A DNA stretch of 64,000 nucleotides from a virus (lineage: Duplodnaviria; Caudoviricetes). Position numbers and translations under genes: made by a program. The stretch is taken from IMG/VR virus record IMGVR_UViG_3300026442_000101, one strand, 5' to 3'. This document shows, piece by piece, positions 7,465 through 46,381 of the stretch (within the stretch, counting starts at the first letter, position 1; every line of letters starts with the position of its first letter). Below the pieces are notes generated by a model, which saw only the letters and a list, made by a program, of their open reading frames with translations, was not told the origin of the DNA and did not search any database.

Positions 7465-8208
7465 TCAAGTCCTTGCGAGTGTGGTTCCGCGCTGCCCTTG
7501 GTATTTACCGCCTTTGTCTTTGTAGCTGATTCTGCAGACTTCAGAGACAGTGTGGAACAGCAGCTGAGCGATACCGCAGCCGAGGTACACGCGGGTTGGG
7601 CTGTTGGTCATCGAAGCGATCTCGAGAACCAGCTCGCCTTCCCATTCCGGCTCCAGCGGGGTAACTAGCTGAGACAGGCCAACGCGGGCATAGGTGGACT
7701 TGCCAAGGCAGGTCACCAGCAGGTCACGCGGAATAACGAAGTATTCGACGGTGTGGGCCAGCGCCAGACTGTTAGGCGGCAGGATGAAGTAGTGCAGACC
7801 GAACTCTTCATCGAAGTGGATCACCGGGTCCATGAGCTGGTCGCCATACGGCCGCATCGGATCGACGATCTCACCGGTGAGGTTGGTGAACAGCTTGATA
7901 CCGTCGGCCTTGATGCGAATGTCGTAGCCGTAGGAGCTGGTGCCCCAGCTGATGATCTTGGTACCCTTCTCGTTGAAGCGGTTAGCCTCTGGAGAGAACG
8001 GCCAGATCATGGGCCGCCAACCGAAGCGGGAGCAGTCCTCGTCATCCTTTGGAGTCTCCAACCCCATCCAGCGACGCTTCTCCATATTCGCCACGATCTC
8101 TGGCGTATGGGTGACGCCCGGAATGATCGGTTCCCAGAAACCATCGCGACGCATGAAGTGGTTAGGGCGCATGCAACGCGCCTGAATTTGACGATCGGAC
8201 AGCAGCAT
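7465..8208 (-). CDS. dcd: dCTP deaminase
   Basis: ISWGTSSYGYDIR, GKSTYARVG, TPLEPEWEGELVLE, YQGQ motifs; ~50-aa N-terminal insertion. Confidence 0.95.
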   Translation of the reverse strand: MLLSDRQIQARCMRPNHFMRRDGFWEPIIPGVTHTPEIVANMEKRRWMGLETPKDDEDCSRFGWRPMIWPFSPEANRFNEKGTKIISWGTSSYGYDIRIKADGIKLFTNLTGEIVDPMRPYGDQLMDPVIHFDEEFGLHYFILPPNSLALAHTVEYFVIPRDLLVTCLGKSTYARVGLSQLVTPLEPEWEGELVLEIASMTNSPTRVYLGCGIAQLLFHTVSEVCRISYKDKGGKYQGQRGTTLART

Positions 8209-32117: not shown

Positions 32118-32245
32118 TAGGTCTCCACCCGTGTTTTCGAGACACGGACCTCACTCATGTACCTGATCCACGCCGAACCCCGAAGGGATGGGCATGTTCG
32201 GAATCGAACCGAAAGAGTGCGCTCTACCATCTGAGCTAGGCGGAG
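32118..32245 (-). ncRNA. tRNA-scaffold RNA NC2 (128 nt) with permuted mini-tRNA in the anticodon arm
   Basis: Acceptor CTCCGCC/GGTGGAG, D arm, stem CACTC/GAGTG around 58-nt insert holding a second T arm. Confidence 0.7.
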
Positions 32246-33670: not shown

Positions 33671-33821
33671 TAGGTAACTCTAGCAGGGAATCGAACCCGC
33701 TGCCTTCCTCATGTTTGCGTCTACCAATTCCGCCATTGGCCGATAGTGCCGGCCAAGCAGGACTCGAACCTGCAATCCTTTTCAGGAAGGTGAGGACGCT
33801 CTACCAATGAGCTACAGAGTT
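33671..33821 (-). ncRNA. nested double tRNA NC6 (151 nt): outer tRNA containing a permuted Leu-type tRNA lacking its anticodon arm
   Basis: Outer AACTCTG/TAGAGTT and TCCTC/GAGGA; inner CGGCCAA/TTGGCCG, D arm TGGCGGAATTGGTAGACGC; ends A-CCTA. Confidence 0.8.
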
Positions 33822-44317: not shown

Positions 44318-46381
44318 TTACGCGACTTTCGAATTGCCGTGCAGTTCGAACCACCGGTCAGTAGTTTCGGTGATGTGCTGATCGACCTTCGCACAGATGT
44401 CGGTGTGGTTAGGATCAACCACGAAACCGCCATCCATGAAGATCGGTTTCAGCAGACCAGACTTGACGTGGATCTCGGCGATCTTCATATCTTGCTCTTG
44501 GTTGAGCACGATACCTTCATCGCTGTCGATCAGCGCCAGCAGGCCTTTGGCCGACTTCTTCAGACCGTCACCGGTGGCTGGGTCTTTGTACAGCTCGACC
44601 ATCTCACCATTGACCATGGTCGCGGTAGCCTTAACGGCAATGCCGAAGGTATCGCGAGTCAGGTAGTTGTAGGTGTAGGAGCCGACGCCGAACACGACGT
44701 TGCACGATGCGAAACCTTTGATCGCCAGACGACGGCAGATTTCTTCAGCGCGGTGTACGGTGATGGAATCGCCGTAGATCAGGCCGATGCGTTCGTGCAG
44801 AACTTTGTAGCCGCGTTCGGTTTCGGTACCGCCGAAGGTTTCCCACAGCAGCTCGATGGCACCCTTCTCTTGCGCCGACAGCTCGACCTGTTCGATCTTG
44901 TAGCCGTTGCGGTAAGTGCCCTTACCCATGACCATGACTTCGACACCGCGCAGCTCGAGCAGGTCATGCAGCTCACGATACGCTTTGAAGCGGACCGGGT
45001 CGGTGCAATCGGCGCTGATCGGGAACGGGTAGTCGAACAGGGCGGCGGAGCCCATCACGTCGGTCATCAGTTCGTCGTAGTAGCTGTGATCAACCGCAGG
45101 CAGATCGGCCTTGACCTGACTGATGGTGCGGGAGATCGCTTTACCGGCGATACTGGTGGCTTTGTGAATCTTGCCTTCCGGATCTTTGAAGTAGACGAAC
45201 TCCGGCTTGTAGTTCACCATCTGAGCTTCGGCAGCAAGCTGGTCCAGGATTTCCACGCCGCAGATGATTTCTACAGGATCGCCCGAGTCAGGACGGATGA
45301 CCAGCTTGGCCATGCCGTTCTCGTCAGGCAGACGAGCCAGGATCTCTTCCTTCAGCGAAGGCAGGACCGAGGTCAGTACGCCAAAGAAGTCGAAGCTGTC
45401 GCACACCAGGCCCAGCATGCCGGTCTTGAACTTGACGGTCAACATTTCCTTGATGAAGCCACGCTCTGCTTCCAGGCGCATGCCTTTCAGTTCAGAGAGC
45501 AGCTCTTCTTCGGTAGCGCCTTCGGCTCGACGAGCCTTGACCATCTGACGCAGCCGACTCAGGATGTTCGCGGTTGCCACCGAGTGCTCAGTCGCAGGAA
45601 TGGTACCTGCGATCATCACCTTCTCGGCATCGCCGTTGTACATCTGCTCGATGTAGTCGATGGCCGGCATGGTATCACTGCCGGTGAACACGCGCAGGTG
45701 AGCCGCGCCGCAACGAGCGCCATCTTCCATACCCGACATGCCACGGTACGAGAAGTCGTGAGCCTGGAACTTGACGAAGTCGGTAGGCACGCCGGTGATC
45801 TTGGCCCACTTGGTCAGGACGCGACGGTACTCGAACGCAATGGTGCCGACGGTAACCTGTTTCCAGGTCATGTTCGACATGATGGTTTCGAGGAACTCGG
45901 CCAGCCAGAAGAACTCGGAGCCTTCATCGATGACATTACCGTTGCTGTCGTAGATGACGTACATAGGCACGCCAATCGGCAGACGGGTACCTTCTTCCAC
46001 GCCCAGGATACGCAGCGGCAGGTGACCGATATCGTGCAGGTTGGCAAGGGACTTGGCCGATACCTTGTCTTTGCCGATGTAGGTGTCGCAGCGGCGCTTG
46101 AACTTGTAGAGCACGTCGGACTTCGGCTTGCTGAAGAAGCTCTCTTCCCACATGCTGACGATTTCATGCAGCGCGGCTACGTGACCGGTGACCAGGATCT
46201 TACGGTCCCACATCGAACTACAACTCGGCGATCGAGCGAAGATCTTGTCGCTACGCGCGGTGCTGTTGGCGTAGAGGAACGACGAACCGTCGGGATACAT
46301 CGGACCATGGCCTTGTTTGTAGCCATCGGTACCGGTAGGGCCGAACATCTTGAAAGCTTTGAACAGTTTCTTGAGAGACAT
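44318..46381 (-). CDS. nadV: nicotinamide phosphoribosyltransferase-like (NAMPT/Namat) with insertions
   Basis: TDGYKQGH, HDFSYRG, IPATEHS, IRPDSGDP, LIYGDSIT, KKSAKG. Confidence 0.95.
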   Translation of the reverse strand: MSLKKLFKAFKMFGPTGTDGYKQGHGPMYPDGSSFLYANSTARSDKIFARSPSCSSMWDRKILVTGHVAALHEIVSMWEESFFSKPKSDVLYKFKRRCDTYIGKDKVSAKSLANLHDIGHLPLRILGVEEGTRLPIGVPMYVIYDSNGNVIDEGSEFFWLAEFLETIMSNMTWKQVTVGTIAFEYRRVLTKWAKITGVPTDFVKFQAHDFSYRGMSGMEDGARCGAAHLRVFTGSDTMPAIDYIEQMYNGDAEKVMIAGTIPATEHSVATANILSRLRQMVKARRAEGATEEELLSELKGMRLEAERGFIKEMLTVKFKTGMLGLVCDSFDFFGVLTSVLPSLKEEILARLPDENGMAKLVIRPDSGDPVEIICGVEILDQLAAEAQMVNYKPEFVYFKDPEGKIHKATSIAGKAISRTISQVKADLPAVDHSYYDELMTDVMGSAALFDYPFPISADCTDPVRFKAYRELHDLLELRGVEVMVMGKGTYRNGYKIEQVELSAQEKGAIELLWETFGGTETERGYKVLHERIGLIYGDSITVHRAEEICRRLAIKGFASCNVVFGVGSYTYNYLTRDTFGIAVKATATMVNGEMVELYKDPATGDGLKKSAKGLLALIDSDEGIVLNQEQDMKIAEIHVKSGLLKPIFMDGGFVVDPNHTDICAKVDQHITETTDRWFELHGNSKVA

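What the first reader, a model, noticed from the sequence alone, without database searches (positions are those of the whole stretch)
33671..33821. Second nested tRNA-in-tRNA with a permuted Leu-type inner tRNA
Outer: AACTCTG/TAGAGTT acceptor, D arm, anticodon stem TCCTC/GAGGA enclosing 81 nt. Inner, in permuted order: variable-arm-like hairpin TCCT-GAAA-AGGA, T arm GCAGG-TTCGAGT-CCTGC, acceptor 3' TTGGCCG-G, linker CACTAT, acceptor 5' CGGCCAA, Leu-type D arm TGGCGGAATTGGTAGACGC. The inner anticodon arm is absent. The inner tRNA is a different class (type II) from that in the neighbouring element, yet total length is nearly the same (151 vs 152 nt). This points to repeated independent formation of the same architecture.
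Basis: partly seen in the sequence, partly recalled or inferred. Interest (0 to 1): 0.85.

Follow-up and report, generated by a model that had tools for sequence, protein, structure and literature searches.

The report
Double-headed tRNA mimic in jumbo phage
A giant soil phage carries a conserved ~150-base RNA gene that folds into two tRNA-shaped bodies joined where the anticodons should be, so it cannot read codons and most likely acts as a tRNA look-alike rather than as a tRNA.

Summary
On the minus strand, 33821-33671 folds as an outer type-I tRNA body. Its anticodon stem opens into a circularly permuted, tRNA-Leu-derived head: variable hairpin, T arm, closed 7-bp acceptor hairpin, Leu D arm.

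Five diverged relatives keep the nested order. Three were found through a neighbouring protein, not through the RNA. All 210 pair cells form standard pairs. Twelve pairs changed on both sides, including 6 of the 7 inner-acceptor pairs. No shuffle out of 500 reaches this, and RNAalifold predicts the same fold unaided.

No 7-nt anticodon loop can be rebuilt, so it is not a decoding tRNA or an intron-bearing precursor. The inner head has the topology of the tRNA-like module of YrlA-type Y RNAs. It fails YrlA membership: no Rfam hit, no Ro-binding stem, no Ro60 gene in the window.

It keeps the LeuRS hinge elements but has G73 in all six sequences, an anti-determinant for LeuRS. Similar permuted Leu-type heads sit on plain stems in four unrelated large-phage contig lineages.

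Best reading: a non-decoding, double-headed tRNA mimic that tRNA-maturation enzymes cut out of the array. Its target is unknown. "Repeated independent formation" is not shown. Other first-stage notes on this same window describe the element and its neighbours.

The parts
33815..33821 (-). Outer acceptor stem, 5' strand (AACTCTG)
   Evidence: Pairs 7/7 with 33676-33682. 3 of 7 pairs changed on both sides across relatives (helix 1).
33798..33812 (-). Outer D arm (GCTC-ATTGGTA-GAGC), type-I, with G18G19
   Evidence: (helix 2, 100% paired).
33792..33796 (-). Shared stem, 5' strand (TCCTC). This is the outer anticodon stem and the stalk of the inner head.
   Evidence: Pairs with 33706-33710. TCCTC/GAGGA, TTCTC/GAGAA and TCTTC/GAAGA occur in relatives, giving 2 compensatory pairs (helix 3).
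33776..33787 (-). Variable-arm-like hairpin TCCT-GAAA-AGGA of the inner head
   Evidence: The same position holds TTCCT/AGGAA in L125 and GCCC/GGGC in L124 and L126. It is absent in L001-L003.
33757..33773 (-). Inner T arm GCAGG-TTCGAGT-CCTGC
   Evidence: Invariant in all six sequences (helix 4). Identical to the T arm of bona fide tRNA-Leu genes in L086 and L114.
33736..33756 (-). Inner acceptor hairpin: 3' strand TTGGCCG, discriminator G, linker CACTAT, 5' strand CGGCCAA. The predicted RNase P site lies between 33743 and 33742.
   Evidence: 6 of 7 pairs changed on both sides (helix 5). Three versions occur: TTGGCCG/CGGCCAA, TACGCCC/GGGCGTA and CTGGGTC/GACTCAG. The linker is 4-6 nt, of variable sequence, with no encoded CCA. 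The cleavage site is inferred by analogy with M. smegmatis YrlA (PMC4201824).
33717..33735 (-). U8-G9 plus the inner Leu-type D arm (TG GCGG-AATTGGTAGA-CGC), carrying A14, A15, G18G19 and A20a
   Evidence: Invariant in all relatives. The window hit to model R1 scores 80.4 bits.
33706..33716 (-). Junction AAACAT plus the shared stem 3' strand (GAGGA)
   Evidence: In L001-L003, L124 and L126 the junction forms a 4-bp inner stem (AAAC/GTTT or AGAA/TTTT) with a 2-3 nt bulge.
33683..33705 (-). Outer variable region AGGCA and outer T arm GCGGG-TTCGATT-CCC(T)GC
   Evidence: One compensatory pair (C-G to G-C). L125 lacks the bulged U (helix 7).
33671..33682 (-). Outer acceptor 3' strand TAGAGTT, discriminator A, then CCTA (no CCA)
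   Evidence: The N-CC(U/C)A trailer is conserved in relatives and shared with the neighbouring anticodon-less elements.

Best explanation
SHOWN. This is a real RNA gene under purifying selection in the minus-strand tRNA array of an uncultured soil jumbo phage. The genome is at least 248 kb, and the nearest cultured relatives by NAPRTase are phiKZ-like Pseudomonas and Ralstonia phages. The RNA forms two tRNA-type bodies joined through one helix at the position of both anticodon stems. One is an outer type-I body that carries the RNA's 5' and 3' ends. The other is an inner, circularly permuted head derived from tRNA-Leu, whose 7-bp acceptor stem is closed by a 5-7 nt loop. There is no anticodon loop, so the RNA cannot decode.

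INFERRED mechanism. The outer body works as a natural tRNA scaffold. RNase P and the 3'-end tRNA-processing enzymes excise the element precisely from the polycistronic array transcript, and the tRNA fold stabilises it. The inner head is the functional cargo. It is a YrlA-like tRNA mimic that presents an authentic tRNA-Leu elbow (D and T arms invariant) while being unable to decode. With G73 and a closed end, it is also unlikely to be leucylated. It would bind and titrate, or recruit, a factor that recognises the tRNA(-Leu) body rather than the anticodon. Candidates are a tRNA-targeting host defence or toxin, LeuRS, or a processing or modification enzyme. Because the inner acceptor stem has exactly 7 bp, RNase P may also nick the linker, as it does in M. 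smegmatis YrlA. That would give a two-piece RNA.

The length of the connecting helix varies: about 5-6 bp in the window and L125, and 9 bp plus a bulge in other relatives. The two heads are therefore probably modular and not held in a fixed geometry.
For: Structure and conservation: MFE fold; 35 pairs, 100% paired, 12 compensatory, 0 of 500 shuffles; independent RNAalifold consensus. L124, L125 and L126 were found through the neighbouring protein at 51-68% identity, not through the RNA.

RNA-level selection on the minus strand: the wobble pairs are G-U in the tRNA sense and would be C-A on the other strand.

Non-decoding: the sequences flanking the shared stem differ between relatives, and none gives a U33-NNN-R37 loop.

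Leu origin: the D arm and T arm are identical to genuine tRNA-Leu genes.

YrlA-like topology: YrlA is described as a circularly permuted tRNA-like domain with a closed acceptor stem. The 7-bp M. smegmatis version is cut by RNase P and receives CCA (PMC4201824; 10.1101/312249). The neighbour's inner head hits Rfam YrlA at 37.7 bits.

Recurrence: permuted Leu-type heads on plain stems occur in L051, L076, L070/L078/L113 and L073, where 7/7 acceptor complementarity is far above chance.

Anti-defence neighbourhood: a PF21825 'Sequestin' sponge gene lies next to the array, and NAPRTase plus PRPP synthetase are in the window.
Against: There is no expression or processing data. The soil 'RNA' runs hold the whole phage genome as long contigs of flat depth and say nothing about transcripts. 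No binding partner is identified. The window has no Ro60, RtcB, RNA ligase or CCA-adding enzyme. The scaffold-plus-cargo division is an inference, since the outer elbow is also highly conserved and could be the active part. The anti-defence role rests only on gene neighbourhood and analogy. Only six sequences from one phage lineage carry the full double-headed form.
Confidence: 0.5

Rival explanations
1. Two-piece aminoacyl carrier. RNase P opens the inner acceptor hairpin, exonucleases trim the 4-6 nt linker, and the CCA-adding enzyme repairs both 3' ends. The inner or outer end is then aminoacylated. The anticodon-less aminoacyl-RNA would feed a non-ribosomal aminoacyl-transfer reaction, or would soak up a synthetase or EF-Tu.
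For: The inner stem is exactly 7 bp in all relatives and in the independent modules. That is the feature that makes M. smegmatis YrlA an RNase P substrate which then receives CCA in vivo (PMC4201824). E. coli tRNA-Leu variants lacking the anticodon and variable arms are still charged (PMC9976931). The hinge determinants A15:U48, G18G19 and A20a are all present.
Against: The discriminator is G in 6 of 6 sequences. A73 is essential for E. coli LeuRS, and G73 is an anti-determinant (PMC9976931). The discriminator is C, A, C and C in the independent modules, so no single identity is conserved. No CCA is encoded at either end.
Confidence: 0.2
2. Bona fide Ro60-associated Y RNA. The element is a YrlA family member that tethers a host- or phage-encoded Ro60/Rsr to an effector, and the outer tRNA body substitutes for the Ro-binding stem.
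For: The module order is the same as in YrlA (T arm, closed acceptor, D arm). The neighbour's inner head gives a sub-threshold YrlA hit. L076 has a full-length 37.5-bit YrlA hit about 110 nt from its permuted Leu module. Some jumbo phages encode TROVE proteins (PMC7824862).
Against: The target gives no YrlA hit at E<=10. The 5' and 3' ends form a tRNA acceptor stem, not the Ro-binding helix with its conserved motif. No TROVE protein is found among 83 window ORFs. None is found in two complete genomes (350 kb and 183 kb) that carry independent permuted Leu modules.
Confidence: 0.12
3. Decaying or neutral tandem tRNA pair: two pseudogenised tRNA genes whose halves happen to pair in trans, with no function.
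For: Each half is tRNA-sized (66-78 and 67-72 nt) with a short spacer. In L126 the cis acceptor pairing is 5-6 of 7, which recalls a tandem-duplicate ancestor. Tandem tRNA-Leu pairs are common in phage arrays (L086, L092, L114).
Against: Trans pairing is 7/7 in every sequence, while cis pairing is 2-3 of 7 in four of five. Twelve compensatory pairs maintain only the nested fold. The elbows are invariant across relatives whose neighbouring protein is only 51% identical. Three double-headed elements and several other anticodon-less scaffolds are kept in the same array.
Confidence: 0.05
4. Precursor of one or two decoding tRNAs. The 81-nt insert would be an intron, or the inner part a permuted tRNA gene, matured by cleavage and ligation.
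For: The gene order 3' half, linker, 5' half is that of the permuted tRNA genes of Cyanidioschyzon. Jumbo phages often carry RNA ligases (PMC7824862).
Against: No conserved 7-nt loop can be reconstituted on either side, because the junction has only 4+6 nt in the window and 0+2 nt beyond the stems in L001. There is no bulge-helix-bulge motif. No splicing endonuclease or ligase is in the window. The contigs laid on the stretch show no spliced or joined form, although contigs cannot exclude one.
Confidence: 0.03

Closest known systems
YrlA-type bacterial and phage Y RNAs (Rfam RF02553; Chen et al. 2014, PMC4201824; Wang et al. 2018, 10.1101/312249)
   Same: The tRNA-like module has the T arm 5' of the D arm and an acceptor-like stem closed by a loop. 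The anticodon-position stem leads to the rest of the RNA. The elbow is conserved while the acceptor varies freely. The 7-bp version (M. smegmatis) is an RNase P substrate that receives CCA.
   Different: Here the stalk ends in a second complete tRNA body instead of a Ro60-binding helix. The D arm is the long tRNA-Leu type. The element scores below the Rfam threshold. No Ro60 gene is found in the window or in complete genomes carrying similar modules.
Dimeric (tandem) tRNA transcripts, the proposed ancestor of YrlA (model cited in 10.1101/312249)
   Same: There are two tRNA-sized halves separated by a 4-6 nt spacer. The inner T arm comes from the first half and the inner D arm from the second, exactly as in the model.
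   Different: The acceptor and anticodon-stem strands pair only in trans, between halves. The leftover parts still form a whole second tRNA body. It looks like a domain-swapped dimer, a possible intermediate that the model did not describe.
Circularly permuted tRNA genes of Cyanidioschyzon merolae and some other algae and archaea
   Same: Gene order is 3' half, linker, 5' half, with the acceptor stem initially closed.
   Different: Those mature through a bulge-helix-bulge splice and a circular intermediate into decoding tRNAs. Here there is no such motif, no anticodon loop, and the context is a bacterial virus.
Engineered tRNA scaffolds and herpesvirus MHV68 tRNA-miRNA (TMER) transcripts (from my own knowledge, not checked here)
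   Same: A tRNA body is used as a processing and stability chassis, with a cargo RNA attached. The anticodon loop is replaced, or the tRNA-like part is not aminoacylated.
   Different: The cargo here is itself a permuted tRNA head. The system is natural and phage-encoded.
Two-piece (permuted) tmRNA
   Same: The gene is permuted, and its tRNA-like domain is assembled from two strands after processing.
   Different: tmRNA has an Ala-type acceptor, a reduced D arm and a tag reading frame. None of these is present here, and ARAGORN reports no tmRNA.

Membership tests
YrlA Y RNA (RF02553) | T arm, then closed acceptor-like stem, then D arm, forming a tRNA-like module | tested here: met
YrlA Y RNA (RF02553) | Score at or above the Rfam gathering threshold (69 bits) | tested here: not met
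   No hit on the target's inner head at E<=10. The neighbouring element reaches 37.7 bits.
YrlA Y RNA (RF02553) | 5' and 3' ends pair into a Ro60-binding helix with the conserved motif | tested here: not met
   The ends form a covarying 7-bp tRNA acceptor stem next to D and T arms.
YrlA Y RNA (RF02553) | Encoded near a Ro60/Rsr (TROVE) gene | tested here: not met
   No TROVE among 83 window ORFs. None in five contigs with permuted Leu modules, two of them complete genomes. The rest of this phage's genome could not be searched.
tRNA-Leu (bacterial type II) | Leu-type D arm with A14, A15, G18G19 and A20a, plus U48 and a standard T loop | tested here: met
   Read from the sequence. Identical to genuine tRNA-Leu genes in L086 and L114. 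Determinants as listed in PMC9976931.
tRNA-Leu (bacterial type II) | Discriminator A73 | tested here: not met
   G in all six sequences.
tRNA-Leu (bacterial type II) | Anticodon arm with a 7-nt loop, and a free 3' end | tested here: not met
   The stalk runs into the outer body. The acceptor is closed by the linker.
tRNA-Leu (bacterial type II) | Long variable arm | tested here: inconclusive
   A hairpin is present in the window, L124, L125 and L126 with different sequences. It is absent in L001-L003.
Circularly permuted tRNA gene (Cyanidioschyzon type) | Termini form a bulge-helix-bulge motif, and joining them restores an anticodon loop | tested here: not met
   The junction has too few nucleotides, they are not conserved, and no such motif is present.
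Intron-containing tRNA (outer body) | Removing the insert leaves a conserved 7-nt anticodon loop | tested here: not met
   The sequences flanking the shared stem differ among relatives, and none gives U33-NNN-R37.
Ordinary tandem tRNA genes | Each tRNA-sized unit pairs its own acceptor and anticodon strands | tested here: not met
   Cis acceptor pairing is 2-3 of 7 (5-6 of 7 only in L126) against 7 of 7 in trans. ARAGORN and Rfam at gathering threshold call no tRNA here.

The most novel reading that the evidence does not exclude
These elements are natural 'domain-swapped tRNA dimers', a surviving intermediate on the proposed path from dimeric tRNA transcripts to YrlA-type Y RNAs. They would found an undescribed class of phage double-headed tRNA mimics. 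The unchargeable tRNA-Leu head (G73, no anticodon) would titrate a host factor specific for the tRNA-Leu body, such as LeuRS or a tRNA-targeting defence nuclease or toxin. The outer tRNA body would secure processing and stability.
Probability: 0.3. Interest if true: 0.85.

Novelty: new variant of a known kind. Interest (0 to 1): 0.74.

Why it matters
tRNA mimics such as tmRNA, viral tRNA-like structures and YrlA are few, and each has taught something about how cells recognise the tRNA shape. This one is a covariation-supported RNA in which two complete tRNA bodies share one stalk and neither can decode. Full-text searches of the held literature found no description of this architecture.

It gives a concrete, testable example for the hypothesis that Y RNAs arose from dimeric tRNAs. 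It also suggests that large phages use tRNA bodies as processing scaffolds for RNA cargo. Together with the permuted Leu-type heads in other huge phages, it points to an unknown interaction that reads the tRNA-Leu elbow. The predictions can be tested with a 151-nt transcript: RNase P cleavage, charging with and without G73A, and pull-downs.

Tried and rejected
(1) Expression and processing. The look-up of sequencing runs found 21 soil 'metatranscriptome' runs holding the stretch. When laid, they carry the whole phage genome as 3-40 kb contigs of flat depth. They give no information on transcript ends, nicks or joints.

(2) More relatives. IMG/VR and JGI metagenome scans with the neighbouring protein returned only the three contigs already found.

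(3) Whole genome. No genome is held for this window, so Ro60, ligases and CCA-adding enzyme could be checked only in the 64-kb window.

(4) Cultured phages. Model R1 gave 16-28 bit hits on Phabio, Viktualia, FLC4-3B and PA1C. All were ordinary tandem tRNAs, so no cultured carrier of the permuted head was found.

(5) L092 looked like a permuted module but is a tandem duplicate tRNA-Leu pair.

(6) Reading the junction as two anticodon loops that crosswise ligation could restore. There are too few nucleotides (11 in the neighbour, 10 in the window).

(7) The phage collection holds no close relative by DNA. Only generic tRNA-level matches appeared, and the 761-aa ORF had no match.

(8) The sigma-70 promoter scan found nothing in the array. 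This is expected for a phiKZ-like phage and is uninformative.

Full report
CONTEXT. The window carries a minus-strand tRNA array. ARAGORN and Rfam call canonical tRNA-Ile, Tyr, Asn and Gln at 34530-34127, plus two tRNA bodies with over-long anticodon loops at 33213-33011. The stretch 33821-33519 is left blank at gathering threshold.

The window encodes thymidylate synthase, thymidylate kinase, DHFR, dCTP deaminase, NAPRTase, PRPP synthetase, QueC, a phiKZ-type S80 protease and a PF21825 'Sequestin' protein. The Sequestin-type protein is described in the literature as a phage sponge for immune signals. The window's own copy of that protein lies on contigs of up to 248 kb. The NAPRTase is closest (48-53% identity) to Pseudomonas phages Phabio and Viktualia and to Ralstonia FLC phages. 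The source is therefore an uncultured soil jumbo phage. No whole genome is held.

THE OBSERVATION. The energy alone is only modestly better than shuffles (z = -2.0), so the case rests on comparison with relatives.

RELATIVES.
- A DNA pattern taken from the inner head found three IMG/VR contigs (L001-L003).
- Three more relatives came from the neighbouring 241-aa protein at 61%, 51% and 68% identity (L124, L125, L126), independently of the RNA sequence.
- All keep the order outer 5' half, inner 3' half, linker, inner 5' half, outer 3' half.

COVARIATION.
- On alignment A3, the 35 pairs I specified are standard pairs in 210 of 210 cells.
- Twelve pairs changed on both sides: 6 of 7 in the inner acceptor, 3 in the outer acceptor, 2 in the shared stem, 1 in the outer T stem.
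- No shuffle out of 500 reaches this, and sliding the partners by 1-3 columns leaves at most 2 such pairs.
- RNAalifold predicts the same nested structure without my input.
- The inner acceptor exists in three fully complementary versions. The discriminator is always G, and the linker is 4-6 nt of unconserved sequence.
- Trans pairing of the acceptor strands is 7/7 everywhere. Cis (tandem-gene) pairing is 2-3 of 7, except in L126 where it is 5-6 of 7.
- The wobble pairs are G-U on the minus strand, so selection acts on an RNA of that sense.

CORRECTIONS TO THE DESCRIPTION.
- The outer T arm is intact but has one bulged U, which L125 lacks.
- The variable hairpin is not universal: TCCT/AGGA in the window, TTCCT/AGGAA in L125, GCCC/GGGC in L124 and L126, and none in L001-L003.
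- In L001-L003, L124 and L126 the shared stem continues through a 2-3 nt bulge into a 4-bp inner 'anticodon' stem. The window and L125 lack this.
- The stalk length between the two bodies therefore varies. This argues against a function that needs a fixed two-head geometry.

WHAT IT IS NOT.
- Not a decoding tRNA or a precursor of one. The nucleotides flanking the shared stem are few and not conserved, and no U33-NNN-R37 loop can be rebuilt for either body.
- There is no bulge-helix-bulge motif, and the window has no splicing endonuclease or ligase.
- Not an ordinary tandem pair, because the cis stems fail.
- Not neutral debris, because compensatory changes maintain only the nested fold.

WHAT IT RESEMBLES.
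- The inner head has the T arm first, then a closed acceptor stem, then the D arm. This is the topology of the tRNA-like module of YrlA-type Y RNAs, which the literature describes as resembling circularly permuted tRNAs.
- In M. smegmatis, where the stem has 7 bp, RNase P cuts it and CCA is added in vivo (PMC4201824; 10.1101/312249).
- The neighbouring nested element's inner head gives a sub-threshold Rfam YrlA hit of 37.7 bits. The target's Leu-type head gives none.
- Membership in the YrlA family fails on score, on the Ro-binding helix and on Ro60 linkage.
- The published model that YrlA arose from dimeric tRNA transcripts (T arm from the first tRNA, D arm from the second) fits well. Each half is tRNA-sized. 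Here the leftover halves still make a second complete tRNA body, so the element looks like a domain-swapped tRNA dimer.

LEU IDENTITY.
- The D arm and T arm are identical to those of genuine tRNA-Leu genes seen in other viral contigs (L086, L114).
- The hinge determinants A15:U48, G18G19 and A20a are present.
- The discriminator is G in all six sequences. In E. coli, A73 is essential and G73 is an anti-determinant for LeuRS, whereas the anticodon and variable arms are dispensable (PMC9976931).
- The head thus looks like tRNA-Leu to anything that reads the elbow, but it is probably not leucylated.

RECURRENCE ELSEWHERE.
- I scanned IMG/VR for a T loop followed within 18-42 nt by the Leu D arm. 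The scan returned 118 stretches, making 119 loci in all with those already held.
- The acceptor-complementarity score across them is bimodal, with nine at 7/7 against about 0.1 expected by chance.
- After removing the target family and one tandem duplicate (L092), four independent lineages remain: L051, L076, L070/L078/L113 and L073 (L073 at 6/7). Two of them come from complete genomes of 350 kb and 183 kb.
- They carry a permuted Leu-type head on a plain long stem, not on a tRNA body. The eight-sequence alignment is 99% paired. The independent examples were selected by complementarity, so that count is not an unbiased test.
- None of these contigs encodes a TROVE protein.
- Model R1 found only ordinary tandem tRNAs in four cultured jumbo phages.

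MECHANISM, AS FAR AS SUPPORTED. I commit to a non-decoding, double-headed tRNA mimic. The outer body provides RNase P and 3'-end processing and stability, as a natural tRNA scaffold. The inner tRNA-Leu-derived head is displayed as a YrlA-like module for a factor that reads the tRNA body. RNase P nicking of the 7-bp inner hairpin is plausible. The anti-defence neighbourhood makes a decoy role against a tRNA-directed host activity attractive, but that step is inference only. The shared N-CCUAUUC trailer, against encoded CCA in the four decoding tRNAs, fits a common origin of the scaffolds and perhaps a distinct 3'-end pathway. I could not test this.

ORIGIN CLAIM. 'Repeated independent formation' is not shown. 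The outer bodies and trailers of the neighbouring elements look paralogous, while the heads differ (type-I against Leu). Duplication of a scaffold followed by head exchange explains the data as well as two de novo events. The partial cis complementarity in L126 hints at recombination or gene conversion between halves.

LITERATURE. Six full-text searches found YrlA, permuted tRNA genes and recent tRNA-mimic families. None describes two tRNA bodies sharing an anticodon stalk, or permuted Leu-type heads in phages.

PRIOR NOTES. Other first-stage notes on this same window describe this element, its neighbour and the wider family. None had been followed up.

Noticed in passing
window:33830-34126 (minus strand): An ORF-free RNA-like segment of about 290 nt lies between tRNA-Gln and the target. 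It is conserved at ~82% in L124 (221-523) and L126 (652-988). It ends in a strong hairpin followed by GCTTATTC. It has no Rfam match at E<=10.
   Followed up: partly
window:33519-33664 (minus strand): The neighbouring nested element has compensatory changes in the outer acceptor, the outer anticodon stem (TCGTC/GACGA to ACGCC/GGCGT), the inner acceptor (CGCCC/GGGTG to GGGTC/GACCC) and the outer T stem across L001-L003. Its second half is exactly collinear with a 74-nt tRNA, and the two stalks are joined by a 4x7 internal loop.
   Followed up: partly
L051:11903-11964(-), L076:7923-7983(-), L070:8835-8894(+), L073:6962-7020(+): Independent permuted tRNA-Leu-type heads (T arm, closed 7-bp acceptor, Leu D arm) are held on plain long stems in unrelated large viral contigs. 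No TROVE gene is present in any of them. L076 also has a 37.5-bit full-length YrlA hit at 7704-7815.
   Followed up: partly
L139:6815-6915 (minus strand; Ralstonia phage FLC4-3B, LC819007.1 about 128314-128414): An unannotated tRNA-like body with a ~45-nt hairpin in place of the anticodon loop follows directly after tRNA-Tyr in a cultured jumbo phage. It resembles the window's 33213-33104 element. Its acceptor has two mismatches, and it ends in A-CCA.
   Followed up: partly
L124:500-705 and L126:965-1165: Relatives carry two extra genes upstream of the target homologue that the window lacks. One is a tRNA with a GTG (His) anticodon. The other is a tRNA body with a ~70-nt structured insert, ending in C-CCTAG.
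   Followed up: no
window:33007-33821, 32118-32245 and relatives: All anticodon-less elements end in N-CC(U/C)A, mostly CCUAUUC. The four decoding tRNAs encode CCA. The trailer is conserved in relatives whose neighbouring protein is only 51% identical.
   Followed up: partly
L126:1177-1340: In this relative the inner acceptor (GACTCAG/CTGGGTC) resembles the outer one (AACTCTG/CGGAGTT). The tandem (cis) reading therefore pairs 5-6 of 7. This may be a trace of gene conversion or of a tandem-duplicate ancestry.
   Followed up: partly
window:31000-36000 in runs X1, X8, X13, X21: Soil libraries labelled metatranscriptomic, from 24 listed studies, hold this phage's whole genome as long contigs at flat word depth of up to ~7300. 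This suggests DNA carry-over, one campaign filed as many studies, or a bloom. It is not evidence of transcription.
   Followed up: partly
window:32253-32978 (minus strand) and 44318-46381 (minus strand): A PF21825 'Sequestin'-type sponge gene lies directly downstream of the tRNA-like array. NAPRTase plus PRPP synthetase (NAD salvage) are nearby. This looks like a counter-defence neighbourhood.
   Followed up: no
window:33221-33553 (minus strand): The small ORF inside the array, between the neighbouring nested element and the 44-nt-insert scaffold, is absent from L124 and L126. In those contigs the two RNA elements are adjacent.
   Followed up: no
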